Origin: Verrucomicrobiota bacterium
GTDB lineage: Bacteria > Verrucomicrobiota > Kiritimatiellia > RFP12 > UBA1067
DNA: 37,880 nucleotides
Direction: 5' to 3'
Assembly: GCA_022704125.1 (NCBI GenBank)
Contig: JAKJHA010000002.1
Span: 1-37,880 of the forward strand
Shown here: one piece after another, positions 435 through 36,075 of the stretch
How the letters are laid out: each line of letters begins with the position of its first letter
Numbering within the stretch: the first letter of the stretch is position 1
Made by a program: the position numbers and the translations under genes
Notes under the pieces: generated by a model
Seen by the model: only the letters and a program-made list of their open reading frames with translations
Told to the model about the DNA's origin: nothing
The model's database searches: none

Positions 435-511
435 TGGCGGGGTGGACGGGATTCGAACCCGCGACCACCGGATCGACAGTCCGGTGCGCTAACCAATTGC
501 GCCACCACCCC
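435..511 (-). tRNA. tRNA-Asp (anticodon GTC), CCA encoded
   Basis: The reverse complement folds as a 77-nt cloverleaf. Acceptor GGGGTGG/CCACCCC, D-arm GCGC-AATTGGTTA-GCGC, anticodon arm CCGGA-CTGTCGA-TCCGG (GTC), T-arm GCGGG-TTCGAAT-CCCGT, discriminator G + CCA. Confidence 0.93.
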
Positions 512-526
512 GCAAAAGTGAACAGC

Positions 527-555
527 AATGTATCAAACGCTCCGCAGAGTTGCAA
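527..555 (-). promoter_or_regulatory. Sigma70-like promoter for tRNA-Asp
   Basis: The minus strand reads TTGCAA (550-555), a 17-nt spacer, then TACATT (527-532). The -10 element ends about 15 nt upstream of the tRNA 5-prime end. Confidence 0.5.
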
Positions 556-23465: not shown

Positions 23466-24194
23466 TCAGGTGTCCTTGGAGATGTGGCGTGTCAGCGAGA
23501 CGGTGCGGGAATCCACGGCCGTGTTGCCGCTCGTTTCGCCGTCGCTGGTCATTGTCCAGTCGGCGTGGATCGTCAAATCTCCGCTCGCGGGAACGCCGGT
23601 GAACTCTGCGTCGAGCGTTTCCACGCCGTCGTGGTTTTCTCCGGCCAGCCAGTTACCCGTGCCTCCCTGCTCGTCGACGTGGGTGCAGGCGAGACCGAAC
23701 GACAGCGAGCGCATGCCGATCCCTGCGGCAGACATCGCGAACATGACCGTGTCTGCCCCGTCGCTGACCGAGGACGGTACTCCGAACTGGGCGGGGAACA
23801 CAAGGCCGGTCGTGTATGTCCGGCAAGAATCGGCCGCGTGCGTCGCGCCGTCGTCGTGCTTGTGCGCGTTCACGGTCAGCGTCGGCCAGTCGGTCGGCGA
23901 ATAGGCCAGAGCGACGCTGTCGATGTGGTAGCCGCCTGAAATAGTGCCTGCGGAGGGGAGCGACAGGTTCCCTGTCGCCGAAAAGCATTTGTAGGTCAGC
24001 GAGACGGATTTGCGCTTGTTGTATTCCTGCTTAGCGACTTCGTCGCCGTCGGCACCGAGGCCGCTTGCGCGATCTTTCTGCGTACTGGGGGCGGCGGTCT
24101 GGATGACCCACTTCGGATCGTTTTCGCCGAGTCCCAGCAGCGTGTTGATGTCGATTGCGTCGGTGGGGCTGAAAAAAACTGGTTTTGTGGCCAT
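23466..24194 (-). CDS. Major tail (tube) protein candidate
   Basis: ATG 24194 preceded by AAGGAG. 242 aa, beta-rich, T/S/G/D-rich. Sits immediately upstream of the chaperone-position and tape measure genes. Confidence 0.5.
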   Translation of the reverse strand: MATKPVFFSPTDAIDINTLLGLGENDPKWVIQTAAPSTQKDRASGLGADGDEVAKQEYNKRKSVSLTYKCFSATGNLSLPSAGTISGGYHIDSVALAYSPTDWPTLTVNAHKHDDGATHAADSCRTYTTGLVFPAQFGVPSSVSDGADTVMFAMSAAGIGMRSLSFGLACTHVDEQGGTGNWLAGENHDGVETLDAEFTGVPASGDLTIHADWTMTSDGETSGNTAVDSRTVSLTRHISKDT

Positions 24195-24223
24195 AGGGTT
24201 TCTCCTTTCCTATGGCCGCGCCG

Positions 24224-24697
24224 TCAAGCCATGGCCGTGACGGCGTTCGCCTTGCCGCCGGTGGCGAACACCAGATCGAACGTCAGCCGCAGCCCCCACA
24301 CGTCAACCGGCTGCTTCTCGTTCGGCACCTCCACGGTGGTCAGCGTGACTTCTCCGATCCCGTTGACCCGGAACAGCGCGATATTCGACAGTTCATCCTG
24401 TACAAGCGGCAGACCGGCGATCACGCGCATCGCCCATTCCTGGCAGCGGTCGCGGTTCAGGTACGCGCACTCGGCGTAGTAGGGGATGCCGAGGGACGGG
24501 AGGTCGCGGGCCAGCAACACGCTCTCTCCTATGTTGGTCACGTCTAGGCTCGCGAAATGCCAGGCGTTCAGGATGCCGGGGTTGCGCCCGAGAAAGGCGT
24601 CGCGGTTTTCAGTGCCGCCTGCGGCCGCAATAAGCGCCTCGAACGCCCTGCGCTCCGCTTCTGTCCATGCCGTCTCGAATGATGCCGGGTCAATCAT
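24224..24697 (-). CDS. Head-tail joining / tail terminator-position protein
   Basis: ATG 24697 overlaps the upstream stop (ATGA). 157 aa. Assigned by position only. The track start 24889 lies in an Arg-rich overlapping stretch. Confidence 0.5.
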   Translation of the reverse strand: MIDPASFETAWTEAERRAFEALIAAAGGTENRDAFLGRNPGILNAWHFASLDVTNIGESVLLARDLPSLGIPYYAECAYLNRDRCQEWAMRVIAGLPLVQDELSNIALFRVNGIGEVTLTTVEVPNEKQPVDVWGLRLTFDLVFATGGKANAVTAMA

Positions 24698-25209
24698 AGG
24701 TTCACCTTTTGCATTTCTTCCGCCATGATCGCGTCGATCTCCTTGTCCTTGTCTTTCAGCGCGCGCTCGATGAACTTGTGGTCGGCCTTCGGCCCTTTGT
24801 TGATGGTGCCGGGGCCGCGATTCTGCCAGCTCTTGCCTTTTTCGTCGTGGATGCGCTTGGCGTAGTTGTAGCCCTTGGCGCTGCGGCATTCCGCGTTTTC
24901 GGCTACGAAGACGCTCCCCTCGATCCGCGGCGCCGTGATCACCGACATCGAGATCGAGCGCTCCAGCGCTCCGGGCTTCCGCCGCGACGTGGCCGTGGGC
25001 TTCTTGCGTTTTGATGTGTTCTTGCGCGTCTTGCGCGTGTCCCTGGCGGCCTGCGCGTCGGTCGGCGAGACCGGCGCGTATTTGACGGCCGTGCCTCTCA
25101 CCAGCACGGTCGCCTGGTAGACGCCGTTCCCTGCCGCCGCCCGCGCCGCCTGCGGCAGCCTGTCGAAGGCCAGCATGATCTCTTTCACCCCGTTGACGGT
25201 CACGCTCAT
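24694..25209 (-). CDS. HK97-gp10-like neck / tail-completion protein
   Basis: ATG 25209. The N-terminus 'MSVTVNGVKEIMLAFDRLPQAARAAA...AVKYAPV' resembles the HK97 gp10 family pattern. The in-frame upstream extension to 25506 crosses a terminator hairpin and reads as non-coding. Confidence 0.55.
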   Translation of the reverse strand: MSVTVNGVKEIMLAFDRLPQAARAAAGNGVYQATVLVRGTAVKYAPVSPTDAQAARDTRKTRKNTSKRKKPTATSRRKPGALERSISMSVITAPRIEGSVFVAENAECRSAKGYNYAKRIHDEKGKSWQNRGPGTINKGPKADHKFIERALKDKDKEIDAIMAEEMQKVNL

Positions 25210-25226
25210 GCCTATGGCCGCATGGT

Positions 25227-25268
25227 AAAACAAAAAAACCTCCCCCGCCTGCGGCCAGGCGGGGGAGG
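25227..25268 (-). terminator. Strong rho-independent terminator between the head and tail modules
   Basis: 13-bp perfect stem CCTCCCCCGCCTG-cggc-CAGGCGGGGGAGG (25239-25268), followed on the minus strand by TTTTTTTGTTTT. It ends about 17 nt upstream of ATG 25209. Confidence 0.8.
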
Positions 25269-25414
25269 CCAGTGAAGGAATCAACACGACATGCGAGTGT
25301 CGGTGTGTACAGTGTGCAACTATGGCCGGCGCGTCAAAATCAAGGGGGGCGGAACGCGGGGCGGAATTTGTCAAAATCAGCGGTTGACGCGGGGGGCGGA
25401 TAAATGCTACCTTG

Positions 25415-25584
25415 ACACTGCTACGGGAAAGTCTCTGACTCCCCGTAAGGGGCGATCCGGTAGCCGTGCCAGGCTGCGACCGGATGTTGCTGGGGGGGGA
25501 CGGCACAGTCCCCCGTGTCCATGGAAGGGGGCGCGAGTCTAACCTTCAGGCGGGACCACGAAAGGGGGCCCGCCATTTTTTTTT
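25415..25584 (+). ncRNA. Candidate plus-strand structured small RNA (5-prime end undefined)
   Basis: Successive hairpins: TACGGG/CCCGTA, ATCCGG(AGCC..GGCT)CCGGAT, GGGGGAC-ggcaca-GTCCCCC, GAAGG/CCTTC. It ends in a plus-strand intrinsic terminator. No convincing ORF on either strand and no promoter confidently identified. Confidence 0.3.
25549..25584 (+). terminator. Plus-strand rho-independent terminator abutting the MuF gene stop codon
   Basis: GGCGGGACC-acgaaag-GGGGCCCGCC followed by A + T9 (25576-25584). The minus-strand reading has no T-run after the hairpin, so it is oriented for plus-strand transcription in an otherwise all-minus region. Confidence 0.65.
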
Positions 25585-27364
25585 ACCTGACGTAGACCAG
25601 CGTCCCTTTTCTCCAGTGGTTCAGGCTGCGCTCGTTCGTGTGCCAGCTGTAGATGTGCCTGCCCCTGTGGTCCACGACATTGACGACTACGTTGCCACCG
25701 GTGCCCTTTACGAAACGGATATATGTCTTGCGACCCGTCTTCCGGTCTTTCCAGATTTCATGCGGCTTTTCCACCGTTGCCTTCGCCTGATCCATCTCGG
25801 CCAAACGTTTCTTGATCTCGCTTGGCTTCCTGTCCGGTTTCAGCAAGTGCTTGAGCGTCACGGCGTCAAATGCCAGCGTTTCACCGATTGGATTATCGAC
25901 ACTCTCACCGGCGGCGATGCGTGCTCTGGCATCGTCTGCCGATACAAGCGGCTCGCGGTCGTCGGCCTTCATGGCCTCCCCCTTTTCGAGCCCCATCGAT
26001 TTCCAGTCGCCGGTCTTCCCTACCATCTGTTTCGGTGTTGGTGTCGGCGTCTGTTTCGGCTCCGGCTTCGGCTTCGGTTTCGGTTTTGCCGCCGGTTGCG
26101 GAACCGGTGGATGGGGTGTGTCGCCTCCACTCTTGGACAGCCCGAGCACCCGCAGGATGTCGTCGGCGCTTGGGTCGCGCGGTGTCAAAATCCGCCCCTT
26201 GTAGACCGTCCCCGGCTGCTCCTTGTTCCGCGCCTTCTCAAACTTGGGGATGCCGCGCTCCCTGATCGCGTCGAGCTGCTCCGGCGTGAGGCGCCGCGCG
26301 GCCTTCGCCGCCTCGTCCGAGAAGGTGCCGCTGCGGATGGCGCGCTCCAGCCGGTCGGCGGTCACGGCGCGCCTGGCGTCCTCGGCGCTCATCCCCTCGG
26401 CCGTGTAGCGCGCCTCGTCGATCTTGTCGCGCTGCCTCTGCATGAATTCGCGGTCCGCCATCTGGGCGGCCGAGGGCTTGCCGAGCTTGGACTGCCGCTC
26501 GATCTCGGCGGCGTCGATCAGGCTGTCCACGGGCAGCGGGCGGTGGACGCAGTTGGGGTGGAACATGCCGGCGGCGCGCGCCTCTTCGTAGGTCGGCCAC
26601 TGCCTGGACTTGCCCGTCATTAGGATGATGCGCCCTTCCCACGCCGCGCACACCGGGCATTCGCCGTCGCCGACCCGGTTGATCTGCGCCAGTTTGAAGC
26701 CGTGGGCGGCGAGGGTGTCGATCTCGCTCTCGATGGCCGCGCGCTGCGCCGTGGTGCGCACCAGCATCTGGAGGTAGCGCGCGCCCTCCCACTGGCGCCC
26801 GGCGCGGTCGGTGAAGCGGTACGCGTCGTCGTCGTCGGCGAGCTCGTCCCAGCGGTCGCGCAGCGCCTTCTGCATCTCGTTGGCGGACAGCCCCTCGACG
26901 GCGCCGCGCCGGAACACGTCCACGACGGCGAACCGCAGCGAGGACACCGCCTTGGACGTCATCTGGTCGGTGAACACGGCGGCGAGGCTGCGCTCGTTGC
27001 TGGGGTGGATGATCTTGAAGTAGCGCTCGGCGCGCCCGGGGTCGTACGCCGCGAGTTTCGCGCGCGACGGCGGCATGTCGGCCAGCGCCGCCTCATGCCC
27101 GGCTTTCGCGGCGTACTCGGTCAGTTCCTTGATGTGCGCGTCGATGCCTTCGGCCAGCTCCCTGTACTTCTCTTCGATCTCGGCGTACAGTTCCTCGCGT
27201 TCCTTCGCGCTCGATGCCGTCTTTGCCTGCGCCGCGGCCAGCGCGATCATCGCGCGTACTTCTTTGCGGGCGCGTTTCAGTTCGCGCATGAGATCGGCCA
27301 CCGTACGCGTCTGATACGCGCGTAGCTTTCTGAGAGGGGGCGGGAGGTTAGACGGCGCTGCCAT
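25583..27364 (-). CDS. MuF / SPP1-gp7 family minor head protein with P/K-rich linker and C-terminal PBECR-like nuclease-toxin domain
   Basis: ATG 27364 lies 2 nt after the upstream stop. MuF signature 'CPVCAAWEGRII....MFHPNCVHRPLPV'. Linker 'PQPAAKPKPKPKPEPKQTPTPTPK'. The C-terminal about 110 aa, 'LKHLLKPD...PHEIWKD..KTYIRFVK..VVVNVV..IYSWHTN...WRKGTLVYV', resembles the phage Barnase-EndoU-ColicinE5/D-RelE-like pattern. Confidence 0.75.
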   Translation of the reverse strand: MAAPSNLPPPLRKLRAYQTRTVADLMRELKRARKEVRAMIALAAAQAKTASSAKEREELYAEIEEKYRELAEGIDAHIKELTEYAAKAGHEAALADMPPSRAKLAAYDPGRAERYFKIIHPSNERSLAAVFTDQMTSKAVSSLRFAVVDVFRRGAVEGLSANEMQKALRDRWDELADDDDAYRFTDRAGRQWEGARYLQMLVRTTAQRAAIESEIDTLAAHGFKLAQINRVGDGECPVCAAWEGRIILMTGKSRQWPTYEEARAAGMFHPNCVHRPLPVDSLIDAAEIERQSKLGKPSAAQMADREFMQRQRDKIDEARYTAEGMSAEDARRAVTADRLERAIRSGTFSDEAAKAARRLTPEQLDAIRERGIPKFEKARNKEQPGTVYKGRILTPRDPSADDILRVLGLSKSGGDTPHPPVPQPAAKPKPKPKPEPKQTPTPTPKQMVGKTGDWKSMGLEKGEAMKADDREPLVSADDARARIAAGESVDNPIGETLAFDAVTLKHLLKPDRKPSEIKKRLAEMDQAKATVEKPHEIWKDRKTGRKTYIRFVKGTGGNVVVNVVDHRGRHIYSWHTNERSLNHWRKGTLVYVR

Positions 27365-27366
27365 GA

Positions 27367-27753
27367 TCACCCCCTGATCACCGCGCCGCCGGTCATCCCC
27401 AGCCACCGCAATGCCTCGGGTGCGTACACCGATGCGCTTGTGCCGCGCACGTCATCCGTGTCCGGGCGTCCGGTCAAGACCGGCACAGGGTCGTTGCCGT
27501 CGGCGTCGGCCACCTGCCCGTTCTCCAGCATCCACAACGCCTGTTCGTACACGGCGTACTCGTCGCGCGTCCGGTCGCCCTCTTTGTAGGCCGGTTCGTT
27601 CTCGTCCATCGGGCGGCCGAGGCCGCGCGCCAACACGCGCCGCGCCGCCGCGATCGCGCCTGTCCTGTGCGCCTGTCCGAACGCCGACCACACGGCCGCC
27701 TTGTGGTGGTTCTCTGAACCGAAATAGATTTGCGCTCTGTCGAAAGAAATCAT
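27367..27753 (-). CDS. Head-tail connector (gp6-like) candidate
   Basis: ATG 27753. 128 aa. Assigned by position and size. Confidence 0.45.
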   Translation of the reverse strand: MISFDRAQIYFGSENHHKAAVWSAFGQAHRTGAIAAARRVLARGLGRPMDENEPAYKEGDRTRDEYAVYEQALWMLENGQVADADGNDPVPVLTGRPDTDDVRGTSASVYAPEALRWLGMTGGAVIRG

Positions 27754-34699: not shown

Positions 34700-36075
34700 G
34701 CCGTCACCTCCGGTGTCGCCTCTGCCCAGCCGTCATACGCGCCGGTCGTGGCCATGCAGTAGCGTTTCCTGATCACGTCGCAGTAGCGCGGATCGATCTC
34801 CATTGCGAAACACCGCCGGTTCAACTGCTCGCATGCTAGTATCGTGCTGCCCGATCCCGCGAACGTGTCGAGCACCGTGCCGCCGCGCTTAGACGAGTTC
34901 CTGATCGCCTGCGCAGCCAGCGCGACCGGCTTCATGGTCGGATGCTCAGGGGACTTGCGGGGCTTGTCGAAGCGCCAGATGTCGGTTTTCGCCTTCTGCC
35001 GCCTGATTGTGCCCTCGACGCGTCCGGGAATGGCCACCTCGAAACCCATGAACCGGATCAGCGTCTGCCCGTCCTGTTCGATGGTCTGCACGGCCGTCAC
35101 ATTCTCCCACACGTTCGGCTCGTTTCTGTCGCTTGTGAAGAACTTGTCCTTTGTCCCCGCCCTCCACCCGTACAAGATCGGCTCAAACTGCTGCTGGTAA
35201 TCGCCGCGCCCGAGCGTGAACGTGTCCTTCACCCACACGATGTCGCTGGACCAGTAGCCGCCGGCCTCGACAAACGCCGCGCGAAGCACCGGCATCTCTT
35301 TCGTGCTCATGCAGACGTAGATCCCGCCCGCAGTAGCTCTCACGATCTGCCGCATCGACTCCCGCAACAACCGGGCGAACGCCTCCGGCGACATGTCGTC
35401 GTTGGCGATTTTGCCAGCCTCGCCCTCGTAGGCCACGTTGTACGGCGGGTCGGTGAAGCACATATCCATCTGGATTCCGCCAGTCAGCCTCTCCACGTCC
35501 GACGCCTGCGCCGCGTCGCCGCAAAGCAAGCGGTGCGCCCCGAGCTGGTACAACGCGCCACAGCGCGAAACAGGCGCGTCCGGGGCGATGTCGGGAGCCT
35601 CATCCTGCATGATCTGGCCGATGTCATCGAACGCCCGCAAGTCGGCAAGATCGAACCCGAGCCCGTCGAGTTCCTCAAACGAGTAGTCACGCGCCAACGC
35701 CTCGGCATCCCATTCGCCGGACATGCCGTCCGGGGCATTGTCGATCAGGATGAACCGACGCGCCTGCTCCGGCGTGATGTCGTCGGCTCTGACCACCCAG
35801 CCGTCAGGCAGCCGCTCCATGCCGAGGTTCATACAGGCTTGCAATCTCTGGTTGCCGCCGAGCACCGTGCCGTCGGCGTTGATCACGATAGGCCGCAACC
35901 GCATGAACTCCGGATCACGGCTAATCGATTCCTGCAAACGCTGCATCGCGCCCGCAGAGATCGTGCGCGGGTTGGTCGGATTAGGCGTGAGTTCGCCGAA
36001 TTGTGAGTTGATGGCCATGACTATGGCCGCGAGGTCAAGGACGGACACCCCGCGCGCGCGTTTTTTGCCGGACAA
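34696..36075 (-). CDS. ParB-like nuclease domain fused to a beta-class DPPY DNA methyltransferase (N6-adenine or N4-cytosine)
   Basis: N-terminal 'LTPNPTNPRTIS...LQESI...PIVI' (ParB/Srx). 'FTDPPYNVAYEG' precedes 'LDTFAGSGSTILA'. Start is TTG 36075 or ATG 36018. Confidence 0.85.
   Translation of the reverse strand: MSGKKRARGVSVLDLAAIVMAINSQFGELTPNPTNPRTISAGAMQRLQESISRDPEFMRLRPIVINADGTVLGGNQRLQACMNLGMERLPDGWVVRADDITPEQARRFILIDNAPDGMSGEWDAEALARDYSFEELDGLGFDLADLRAFDDIGQIMQDEAPDIAPDAPVSRCGALYQLGAHRLLCGDAAQASDVERLTGGIQMDMCFTDPPYNVAYEGEAGKIANDDMSPEAFARLLRESMRQIVRATAGGIYVCMSTKEMPVLRAAFVEAGGYWSSDIVWVKDTFTLGRGDYQQQFEPILYGWRAGTKDKFFTSDRNEPNVWENVTAVQTIEQDGQTLIRFMGFEVAIPGRVEGTIRRQKAKTDIWRFDKPRKSPEHPTMKPVALAAQAIRNSSKRGGTVLDTFAGSGSTILACEQLNRRCFAMEIDPRYCDVIRKRYCMATTGAYDGWAEATPEVTA

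What the first reader, a model, noticed from the sequence alone, without database searches (positions are those of the whole stretch)
25210..25584. Non-coding island between convergent terminators: candidate antisense/structured RNA next to the MuF-toxin gene
This is the only sizeable non-coding gap in the structural module. At its right end a plus-strand intrinsic terminator (hairpin + T9) overlaps the MuF stop codon, although every gene in the prophage part of the window is on the minus strand. At its left end a 13-bp-stem minus-strand terminator sits about 17 nt before the first neck gene. In between, the plus strand folds into at least four consecutive hairpins (25421-25548). Upstream there are direct repeats: GTCAAAATCA x2 at about 25334 and 25371, and GGGGCGGA x3. 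A plus-strand RNA ending here would be antisense to the 3-prime UTR of the toxin-domain gene, so an RNA antitoxin or immunity element, or a regulator of head-to-tail read-through, is conceivable.
Basis: partly seen in the sequence, partly recalled or inferred. Interest (0 to 1): 0.65.

Follow-up and report, generated by a model that had tools for sequence, protein, structure and literature searches.

The report
Small RNA gene beside phage RNase-toxin
The gap behind the phage's RNase-tipped head protein (MuF-PBECR2) most likely holds a small, independently transcribed RNA gene that travels with the RNase domain. This matches a pattern I found here: the orphan RNA family "skipping-rope" sits next to the same RNase domain in other phages, so RNA partners of this domain, possibly RNA immunity, look widespread.

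Summary
The gap holds two back-to-back units.

The right unit (25384-25584, + strand) has a sigma-70 promoter with an extended -10 (TTGACG-N18-TGcTACCTT), about 165 nt of RNA, and a hairpin+U9 terminator that overlaps the MuF stop codon. No ORF is conserved and Rfam gives no hit.

In 12 related phage loci, every MuF ending in PBECR1, PBECR2, PBECR3 or LPD3 has such a convergent unit with the same promoter type. None of the loci that lack an effector domain, or that carry another toxin plus a small ORF, has one. The RNA body differs by domain type. Two PBECR2 cassettes share only 42% protein identity yet keep one GNRA hairpin, with two compensatory pairs.

In unrelated phages, 81 of 99 skipping-rope RNAs (RF02924) lie about 30 nt behind a PBECR2 ORF and have their own promoter.

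The left unit (25337-25227, - strand) is the promoter, leader and terminator of the neck operon.

I conclude that this is a new structural class of PBECR-associated sRNA. Its most likely role is an RNA partner or immunity factor for the RNase. A cis-antisense role is the main rival. No strand-specific RNA data exist, and hairpin stability alone is not above chance.

The parts
25583..27406 (-). MuF (Phage_min_cap2) head protein with a C-terminal PBECR2 RNase domain (about 25592-25903). The likely true start is the ATG at 27358, which gives 591 aa as in P0001.
   Evidence: Pfam PF06152 at 6e-15 and PF18810 at 1.6e-9. The C-terminal 140 aa alone score PBECR2 at 1.4e-10. Homologues are listed.
25384..25413 (+). 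Predicted sRNA promoter. The -35 is TTGACG (25384-25389), the spacer is 18 nt, and the extended -10 is TGcTACCTT (25405-25413). The predicted start is near 25419-25421.
   Evidence: The same TTGACN-N17/18-TGnTAnnnT sits at the homologous place in L001, L004, L005, L137 (twice), L141 and L142. The tool's only promoter hit in L001, L004 and L137 is this one. The pattern has only 6 other matches in 207 kb, and one of those is the tRNA-Asp promoter at window 555(-). The spacer is the most variable stretch between W and L001.
25420..25584 (+). Predicted sRNA of about 165 nt. It is convergent on MuF and complementary to the MuF 3' UTR.
   Evidence: Identity to L001 is 92-97%, while the flanking genes are 60-80% identical. 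1-nt indels at 25344 and 25500 break both candidate ORFs. There is no Rfam hit. The plus strand folds 9.9 kcal/mol better than the minus strand, and the same direction holds in 7 of 8 units. A 177-nt contig at 25407-25583 appears in RNA run X32, which is only suggestive.
25524..25547 (+). Conserved hairpin H4: GAAGG-GGGC-GCGA(GNRA)-GUCU-AA-CCUUC.
   Evidence: 17 of 18 nt of the core are identical in L004, whose PBECR2 domain is only 42% identical. Two outer-stem pairs are compensatory (A-U to G-C, A-U to U-A). The 25538 U/C variant keeps a G-U or G-C pair on the plus strand only. A CM built on it finds only W and L004 in 698 kb.
25549..25584 (+). Intrinsic terminator of the sRNA (hairpin + U9). 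The U-run overlaps the MuF stop codon.
   Evidence: Equivalent hairpin + U-run units abut the MuF stop in L004, L005 (tool hit), L137, L141 and L142.
25333..25406 (.). Divergent promoter region made of two imperfect 37-bp repeats. Each repeat carries GTCAAAATCA and GGGGCGGA. These are candidate regulator-binding sites.
   Evidence: L004, L137 and L139 have analogous but different repeats (TCTGAAAAC) at the same place.
25227..25337 (-). Neck-operon control unit. It comprises a -35-like TTGACG (25337..25332), GGCCATAG (25327..25320), a leader of about 50 nt, and a 15-bp terminator (25270..25237) with a U-run (25236..25227).
   Evidence: The same TTGACS-N4-GGCCATA ... terminator ... GGCCATAGGCATG layout occurs in L005, L006 and L140, with an analogous leader in L136; L006, L140 and L136 lack the sRNA unit.
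24694..25209 (-). First neck gene (171 aa, no Pfam hit). It diverges sharply from L001 right at its ATG.

Best explanation
The right half of the gap is a small RNA gene on the plus strand. It has its own sigma-70 promoter with an extended -10 (25384-25413). It encodes about 165 nt of structured RNA and ends in an intrinsic terminator that abuts the MuF stop codon. The gene belongs to the exchangeable C-terminal effector cassette of MuF. It is not part of the phage backbone.

I think its most likely role is as the RNA partner of the PBECR2 RNase domain. In this view it is a neutralising, immunity-like or antitoxin-like RNA, possibly a substrate mimic. It would be made independently of late transcription, and therefore also in the lysogen. 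It occupies the position where other MuF toxins carry an immunity protein gene. In this sense it would be functionally analogous to skipping-rope RNAs, which I find next to PBECR2 genes in other phages.

Because the gene is convergent, the RNA is also fully complementary to the MuF 3' UTR. This could add an antisense layer of control.

Computationally shown: the transcription signals, the conservation, the co-occurrence with PBECR/LPD3 domains, and the one conserved hairpin. Inferred: actual transcription, any binding to or inhibition of the RNase, and the direction of the effect.

The left half of the gap is a separate unit. It is the promoter, leader and terminator that controls the neck operon.
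For: 1. Promoter. The promoter pattern is conserved in all 8 units found in the related loci. It is rare in background sequence, and one background hit is the tRNA-Asp promoter, which serves as a positive control. The tool independently reports the same promoter as its only hit in L001, L004 and L137.

2. Co-occurrence in 12 related loci.
- All 6 cassettes ending in PBECR1, PBECR2, PBECR3 or LPD3 have a convergent unit: W/L001, L004, L005, L137, L141 and L142 (Pfam).
- None of the other 6 loci has one. L136, L143 and L144 have no effector domain. L006, L139 and L140 have another C-terminus plus small ORFs.
- Fisher one-sided p is about 0.001 if the loci are treated as independent.

3. RNA type tracks domain type. 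The RNA body differs between domain types. The two PBECR2 cassettes share hairpin H4 with 2 compensatory pairs, despite 42% protein identity.

4. Conservation. The block 25339-25649 is the most conserved stretch in a mosaic region.

5. Strand. Substitutions and G-U pairs favour the plus strand.

6. Independent precedent.
- Rfam RF02924 (skipping-rope) lies directly behind a MuF-PBECR2 gene in L135 (54.9 bits).
- 81 of 99 skipping-rope instances in IMG/VR lie 5-43 nt behind a PBECR2 ORF on the same strand.
- 15 of 16 sampled instances were confirmed by the Rfam model.
- They have their own TTTACA-N17-TATAAT promoter. That RNA is on the sense strand, so antisense pairing cannot be the feature the two RNA types share.

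7. tRNA context. Skipping-rope and drum RNAs that lack a PBECR neighbour sit in phage tRNA arrays. BECR RNases such as colicins E5 and D are tRNases (established knowledge; Iyer 2017, PMC5512222).

8. Other toxins. Classical toxins on MuF (ART, Gln_amidase, DUF3626) are followed directly by a small ORF and not by an RNA.
Against: - There is no direct evidence of a plus-strand transcript. No stranded reads exist. Contigs from RNA runs cover the whole prophage at similar or higher depth and cross the unit's borders.
- Fold stability is not above chance (z about -1.5).
- Only one hairpin has covariation, and that rests on a single divergent relative.
- The RNA behind the LPD3 genes is 97% identical in L137 and L141, although their LPD3 domains are only about 40% identical. 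The RNA therefore does not simply co-diverge with the protein.
- LPD3 is not a known nuclease.
- A distant MuF-LPD3 locus (L059) has no such unit.
- L051 keeps the sRNA block with only 65 nt of MuF left, next to a BREX brxP gene. The RNA can therefore persist without the toxin, though this looks like a recent remnant.
- No RNA inhibitor of a BECR RNase is known.
Confidence: 0.4

Rival explanations
1. Pure cis-antisense regulator, in the manner of lambda OOP RNA or a type I antitoxin. The sRNA pairs with the 3' UTR of read-through MuF-PBECR2 mRNA. This would trigger RNase III cleavage, or cause transcriptional interference by convergent polymerases. The result would be to keep the toxic effector silent in lysogens. 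No protein-RNA contact would be needed.
For: - All 8 units are convergent, and their U-run overlaps the MuF stop codon.
- There is no sense-strand terminator between the MuF stop and 25270, so the mRNA must carry the full complement of the sRNA.
- The promoter looks constitutive.
- The unit is present only where a toxic or effector domain lacks an immunity ORF.
Against: - The overlap covers the 3' UTR only. It does not reach the RBS or the coding region.
- An antisense role by itself does not explain why the 18-nt H4 core and its stem are conserved between cassettes that are 42% identical.
- It also does not explain why PBECR2 genes in other phages carry a sense-strand sRNA gene.
- The toxin is a large virion protein, not a small membrane peptide.
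Confidence: 0.25
2. Trans-acting sRNA 'moron'. In this view it is an independent lysogenic-conversion sRNA that targets host or competing-phage mRNAs. It sits behind MuF only because that junction is a recombination hot spot, and it has no functional tie to PBECR2.
For: - The unit has its own promoter and terminator.
- Its flanks are mosaic.
- It persists beside a BREX island after loss of MuF in L051.
- L137 carries tandem units.
Against: - Co-occurrence with PBECR/LPD3 endings is perfect in 12 loci.
- The terminator abuts the stop codon precisely in every case.
- Skipping-rope RNAs show a parallel association with PBECR2.
- No convincing complementary target was found in the window.
Confidence: 0.12
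3. There is no RNA gene. In this view the region is DNA-level control sequence, with operators and divergent promoter elements for the neck operon, plus a stabilising 3' hairpin for MuF mRNA. The plus-strand promoter and terminator would be chance or vestigial.
For: - Fold z-scores are weak.
- Direct repeats typical of operator sites lie beside it.
- No transcript evidence exists.
Against: - The promoter, a body of 66-155 nt, and a U-run terminator recur in 8 units with unrelated sequences.
- The promoter pattern is rare in background sequence.
- The RNA body is more conserved than the neighbouring genes.
- Relatives that have the neck-operon control unit but no effector domain lack this part.
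Confidence: 0.1

Closest known systems
Skipping-rope RNA (Rfam RF02924; Weinberg et al. 2017, PMC5737381), together with drum and the DUF3800-I..XI motifs
   Same: It is a structured small RNA that ends in an intrinsic terminator. It has its own promoter and sits directly against the 3' end of a PBECR2-domain gene (81 of 99 cases here). The paper describes these motifs as tied to one nearby protein domain 'in either orientation', with function unknown. It also describes several unrelated folds that serve one protein family.
   Different: No sequence or structure match was found on either strand at E<=10. The window RNA is on the opposite strand to the gene, is about twice as long, and lacks the closing stem and the GAGG / GAGAUGC motifs.
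Lambda OOP RNA, and type I toxin-antitoxin pairs with 3' overlap (txpA/RatA, bsrG/SR4 of Bacillus prophages); recalled from my own knowledge
   Same: It is a short convergent RNA with its own promoter and terminator, complementary to the 3' end of a prophage mRNA whose product is harmful.
   Different: The overlap does not reach the coding region. The toxin is a 600-aa virion protein with an RNase domain, not a small membrane peptide. A conserved hairpin points to more than base pairing.
Type III toxin-antitoxin systems (ToxIN; my own knowledge)
   Same: An RNA would neutralise an endoribonuclease by direct binding, and the two are inherited as one cassette.
   Different: The RNA has no tandem repeats. 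It lies downstream and is convergent, rather than upstream and co-transcribed. PBECR2 is not related to ToxN.
MuF polymorphic toxin-immunity modules (Jamet et al. 2017, PMC5576092) and polyvalent proteins (Iyer et al. 2017, PMC5512222)
   Same: It has an N-terminal MuF domain and a swappable C-terminal effector. The downstream flank is swapped along with the effector.
   Different: There is no immunity protein gene. An sRNA unit takes that position.
Lambda PR'-tR' late leader (left half of the gap only; my own knowledge)
   Same: A promoter is followed within about 65 nt by a strong terminator placed just before a late structural operon.
   Different: No Q-like antiterminator or qut site has been identified, and the -10 region is poor. 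This comparison is inference only.

Membership tests
Skipping-rope RNA (RF02924) | Scores at or above the family's gathering score with the Rfam covariance model | tested here: not met
   There was no RF02924 match at gathering score in the window. There was also none at E<=10 in 25150-25650 on either strand. L135 scores 54.9 bits.
Skipping-rope RNA (RF02924) | Lies next to a gene encoding one specific protein domain (found here to be PBECR2) | tested here: met
   The window RNA abuts a PBECR2 ORF. 81 of 99 skipping-rope RNAs do the same.
Skipping-rope RNA (RF02924) | Followed by a Rho-independent terminator, and not located in a 5' UTR | tested here: met
   A hairpin + U9 lies at 25549-25584. 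No gene lies downstream on the plus strand.
Type I toxin-antitoxin / cis-antisense RNA | The antisense RNA overlaps the toxin mRNA | tested here: inconclusive
   Complementarity to the 3' UTR follows from the gene layout. Neither transcript was observed with strand information.
Type I toxin-antitoxin / cis-antisense RNA | The toxin is a small, usually hydrophobic peptide | tested here: not met
   The toxin candidate is a 591-607 aa MuF-PBECR2 protein.
Type III toxin-antitoxin | The antitoxin is an array of tandem RNA repeats upstream of the toxin gene, processed by the toxin | tested here: not met
   The predicted RNA at 25420-25584 has no repeats. The only repeats lie upstream in the promoter region. 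The unit is downstream of the toxin gene and convergent on it.
Type III toxin-antitoxin | The RNA binds and inhibits the endoribonuclease | not testable with these tools
   This needs co-expression and binding assays.
MuF polymorphic toxin module | N-terminal MuF domain plus a variable C-terminal toxin domain | tested here: met
   PF06152 + PF18810. Relatives carry PBECR1, PBECR3, LPD3, Gln_amidase, ART or unknown C-termini.
MuF polymorphic toxin module | An immunity protein gene lies immediately downstream | tested here: not met
   No conserved ORF lies in 25210-25582, and indels break the candidates. Relatives with other toxins do have small ORFs there.
Intrinsic (Rho-independent) terminator pair | A G+C-rich hairpin followed by a U-run on the transcribed strand | tested here: met
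   The minus-strand terminator at 25270..25227 is a tool hit. The plus-strand terminator at 25549-25584 is supported by the sequence and by RNAfold.

The most novel reading that the evidence does not exclude
Phage-injected BECR-fold RNases (PBECR1-3) are routinely paired with dedicated small RNAs instead of immunity proteins. Several unrelated RNA folds would do the same job: the one in this window, those behind PBECR1 and PBECR3, and the orphan families skipping-rope and perhaps drum. That job would be to bind the RNase as a non-cleavable tRNA-like decoy. This would protect the lysogen or the producing cell, or protect against a superinfecting relative. It would be an RNA-based immunity system for polymorphic or polyvalent effectors, and it would give skipping-rope RNA a function.
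Probability: 0.3. Interest if true: 0.85.

Novelty: new variant of a known kind. Interest (0 to 1): 0.68.

Why it matters
Skipping-rope, drum and the DUF3800 RNAs have had no assigned function since 2017. They were noted for being tied to a nearby protein in either orientation.

This work identifies PBECR2, a predicted RNase that phages inject, as the partner of skipping-rope RNA. It also shows that a phage family from Kiritimatiellia-type hosts carries different small RNAs of its own at the same position. In that family the RNA appears exactly where related phages carry immunity protein genes.

This turns an open question into a simple experiment: does the RNA neutralise the RNase? If it does, RNA immunity would be a new layer in phage-host and phage-phage conflict, and it would explain why PBECR effectors lack immunity genes.

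One caveat applies. The supplementary text of Weinberg et al. 2017, which may already name the partner domain, was not available to me.

Tried and rejected
- Rfam at gathering score and at E<=10 found nothing relevant.
- ARAGORN found no tRNA or tmRNA in the gap.
- Small ORFs were rejected. The ORFs 25291..25542(+), 25421..25576(-) and 25515..25595(+) are broken by 1-2 nt indels in relatives or are absent in L004.
- The phage GenBank collection gave no DNA match.
- A protein search with the PBECR2 domain alone returned nothing, not even the protein's own cluster. I treat this as a failure of the tool's word filter.
- The metagenome scan with the H4 core gave 49 stretches. Only 10 were true relatives, all close, and the rest were chance or unrelated genes.
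- A CM of H4 found no further members in 698 kb of MuF loci.
- Raw-read RNA runs gave zero reads.
- Contigs from RNA runs lack strand information, were selected through this very region, and show no enrichment of the sRNA.
- Thermodynamic z-scores are weak.
- A whole-RNA alignment of W with L004 is unreliable outside H4.
- I considered trans targets of the H4 loop in the window and dropped the idea. The single 3-mismatch match is below chance expectation.
- No similarity between PBECR and DUF3800 was detected.
- I considered a sigma-54 reading of GGCCATAGTTGCA and rejected it, because the spacing is wrong and the motif is not conserved.

Full report
**What is in the sequence**

The gap 25210-25582 separates two minus-strand genes. 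One is a 591-607 aa gene (25583..27406) whose product has a MuF/Phage_min_cap2 domain and a C-terminal PBECR2 RNase domain (C-terminus alone). The other is the first neck gene (ATG at 25209).

- A plus-strand hairpin (25549-25574) followed by T9 (25576-25584). It overlaps the stop codon at 25583-25585.
- A 15-pair minus-strand terminator (25270..25237) with a U-run that ends about 17 nt before the neck ATG.
- Two exact copies of GTCAAAATCA at 25333 and 25370.
- Three copies of GGGGCGGA at 25346, 25358 and 25393.

The hairpins at 25421-25548 appear in the MFE fold. In this 60-65% G+C DNA they are not more stable than shuffled sequence (z = -1.5 to -1.8). Rfam and ARAGORN find nothing in the gap.

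**Conservation**

The closest relative is L001, an IMG/VR contig that is the same sequence as a Kiritimatiellia MAG (L002). It is mosaic with respect to the window:
- MuF N-terminal part: about 78% identical.
- Neck gene: about 60% identical, with divergence starting exactly at its ATG.
- PBECR2 part: about 90% identical.
- The gap: 92-97% identical, the best-conserved stretch.

Ten further metagenome contigs carry close variants. In L046 and L051 the block 25339-25649 matches the window apart from T-run length and at most two changes in the MuF 3' end, but the left flank is unrelated (a 67-aa gene and a DNA methylase). In L051 the right flank switches at 25649 to a BREX type-4 brxP gene. That junction is present in at least 20 independent DNA runs.

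Single-base indels at 25344 and 25500, and T7/T8/T9 variation, break every ORF in the gap. The region is therefore non-coding, conserved and modular.

**Two units, back to back**

Comparison with more distant MuF loci splits the gap into two units. These loci were fetched through protein homologues.

*Left unit (minus strand).* It reads: TTGACG, then GGCCATAG, a short leader, a strong terminator, then GGCCATAGGCATG. The same layout precedes the neck gene in L005, L006 and L140, with an analogous leader in L136. A second, longer leader type with the same logic precedes it in L004, L137, L139 and L141. This unit is present whether or not the right unit is. It is best read as the control region of the neck operon, loosely like lambda PR'-tR'. 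That comparison is inference.

*Right unit (plus strand), the subject of the finding.* It consists of:
- TTGACG at 25384-25389.
- An 18-nt spacer.
- TGcTACCTT at 25405-25413, which is an extended -10.
- About 165 nt of RNA.
- The U9 terminator.

The direct repeats lie between the two divergent -35 boxes. They form two imperfect 37-bp units and are likely regulator sites.

**Evidence that the right unit is a real plus-strand RNA gene**

- Every relative that has a long gap behind MuF has TT[GC]NNN-N17/18-TGnTAnnnT on the strand antisense to MuF. This is followed by 66-155 nt and then a hairpin + U-run that abuts the MuF stop. There are eight such units: W, L001, L004, L005, L137a, L137b, L141 and L142.
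- The tool's own promoter scan returns exactly this site as its only hit in L001, L004 and L137. It also reports the L005 terminator.
- The promoter pattern has only six other matches in 207 kb. One of those sits just upstream of the window's tRNA-Asp gene, which is a useful positive control for this host.
- Between W and L001 the promoter spacer is the most variable stretch, while the boxes are kept or move toward consensus.
- The plus-strand RNA folds better than its complement in 7 of 8 units, by 8-17 kcal/mol for the PBECR2 units.
- The few substitutions within stems give G-U or G-C pairs on the plus strand only: 25538 U/C, 25558-9 AC to UU, and C to U in L141.
- One hairpin, H4 (25524-25547: GAAGG-GGGC-GCGA-GUCU-AA-CCUUC), is kept in L004 with 17 of 18 core bases identical and two compensatory outer pairs. 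The two PBECR2 domains are only 42% identical.
- The other hairpins have no comparative support.

**Link to the effector domain**

The 12 related loci sort cleanly:

| MuF C-terminus | Loci | Convergent unit |
|---|---|---|
| PBECR2 | W/L001, L004 | yes |
| PBECR1 | L005 | yes |
| PBECR3 | L142 | yes |
| LPD3 | L137, L141 | yes |
| No C-terminal domain | L136, L143, L144 | no |
| Other C-terminus plus one or two small same-strand ORFs | L006, L139, L140 | no |

Domain assignments come from Pfam and locus layouts. That is 6 of 6 against 0 of 6, giving a one-sided Fisher p of about 0.001 if the loci were independent, which they only partly are.

The RNA bodies differ between domain types. Distant phages with classical toxins on MuF (ART, glutamine deamidase, DUF3626) have an overlapping small ORF instead.

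**A known RNA family in the same place**

In a distant phage (L135), the MuF-PBECR2 gene is followed on the same strand by a match to Rfam RF02924, skipping-rope RNA (54.9 bits against a gathering score of 36.7).

I then scanned IMG/VR with a pattern from that family:
- 99 matches also have the closing stem and the GAGG motif.
- 15 of 16 sampled matches pass the Rfam model.
- 81 of the 99 lie 5-43 nt (mode 29) downstream, on the same strand, of an ORF whose C-terminus is PBECR2. This was judged by phmmer against Pfam-verified seeds. Pfam on 8 diverse samples gave 7 above the cut-off.
- They carry their own TTTACA-N17-TATAAT promoter straddling the stop codon.
- Instances without a PBECR neighbour sit in phage tRNA arrays, once together with two drum RNAs.

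Weinberg et al. [quoted passage not shown] They reported no known function and no self-cleavage. The supplementary text that may name the protein was not available to me.

**Interpretation**

The window RNA is not a detectable skipping-rope member. It does fill the same niche: an independently transcribed, terminator-ended small RNA gene pressed against the 3' end of a PBECR2 ORF.

Skipping-rope is on the sense strand, so antisense pairing cannot be the property the two RNA types share. A working relationship with the RNase domain is the simplest common explanation.

I favour a neutralising role (immunity, antitoxin or decoy) for four reasons:
- The RNA takes the place of immunity genes.
- Its promoter is independent of late transcription.
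- BECR RNases bind structured RNAs such as tRNAs (Iyer 2017, PMC5512222; my own knowledge of colicins E5 and D).
- Skipping-rope and drum RNAs sometimes sit among phage tRNAs.

All of this is inference.

The main rival is a purely antisense role of the OOP or type I kind, which the convergent layout allows. Several observations count against my reading:
- No transcript has been shown.
- Covariation is thin.
- The RNA behind LPD3 is 97% conserved while the LPD3 domains are about 40% identical.
- A distant LPD3 locus lacks any unit.
- An orphan copy sits beside BREX in L051.

**Expression data**

RNA-derived public runs do contain the region. These runs were found through this very sequence, and their contigs have no direction. 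They cover the whole prophage at similar or higher depth and often cross the unit's borders. One 177-nt contig (25407-25583, run X32) matches the predicted unit closely but is a single low-depth record. Three runs kept as raw reads gave no reads. Transcription is therefore untested.

**Verdict**

I classify the RNA as a new structural variant within the known but unexplained kind of protein-associated, terminator-ended small RNAs. Its clear and testable partner is the PBECR2 RNase domain.

Noticed in passing
L135:5085-5193; L145-L262 (IMG/VR loci): Skipping-rope RNA (RF02924) lies about 29 nt downstream of a PBECR2-ending ORF in 81 of 99 phage instances. Most of these ORFs are MuF fusions of 500-560 aa. 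The RNA has its own TTTACA-N17-TATAAT promoter straddling the stop codon. This may be the unnamed protein association noted in 2017.
   Followed up: yes
L209:6524-11897; L148:1121-2194: Skipping-rope RNAs that lack a PBECR neighbour sit inside phage tRNA arrays. L209 also has two drum RNAs (RF02958, 90-94 bits) among at least 7 tRNAs. This hints at a tRNA-related role for these RNA families.
   Followed up: partly
L004:4990-5235; L137:4440-4697; L139:4702-4991; L141:3790-4036: A conserved leader of about 250 nt lies before the neck gene (MSKRV...). It has TCTGAAAAC repeats, a TTGAC promoter, a long-range CCCCCG...CGGGGG+U5 terminator, and a second hairpin with an antisense U-run. It is a candidate cis-regulatory or antitermination RNA and has no Rfam hit.
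   Followed up: partly
window 25212-25219, 25320-25327, 24210-24217, 24189-24196, 36021-36028: GGCCATAG occurs 5 times against 0.6 expected. In each type-A leader it appears twice: 4 nt after the -35-like TTGACG, and again directly before the neck-gene ATG (GGCCATAGGCATG). The same holds in L005 and L140, with variant copies in L006. Its function is unknown.
   Followed up: partly
L051:1-5657: A BREX type-4 brxP gene (PADLOC 4.6e-234) and a 903-aa gene directly abut a 65-nt remnant of the MuF 3' end plus the intact sRNA block. The junction is present in at least 20 DNA runs from sludge, digester, gut and landfill samples. It looks like a defence island inserted into a prophage remnant.
   Followed up: partly
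window 526-555 (minus strand): An extended -10 promoter, TTGCAA-N17-TGATACATT, lies just upstream of tRNA-Asp (511..435). It is a useful reference for promoter shape in this host.
   Followed up: no
L137:4181-4440: Two convergent sRNA units lie in tandem behind one MuF-LPD3 gene. The distal one is 97% identical to the single unit of L141, although the LPD3 domains are only about 40% identical.
   Followed up: partly
L064:3890-4040; L117:7736-7912; L113:6657-6739: tRNA genes lie shortly downstream of MuF-toxin/immunity modules in distant phages.
   Followed up: no
L106:3668-5779; L059:3974-6535: In distant phages the MuF genes are interrupted by an intein (PF14890), once together with a C-terminal LPD3 domain.
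   Followed up: no
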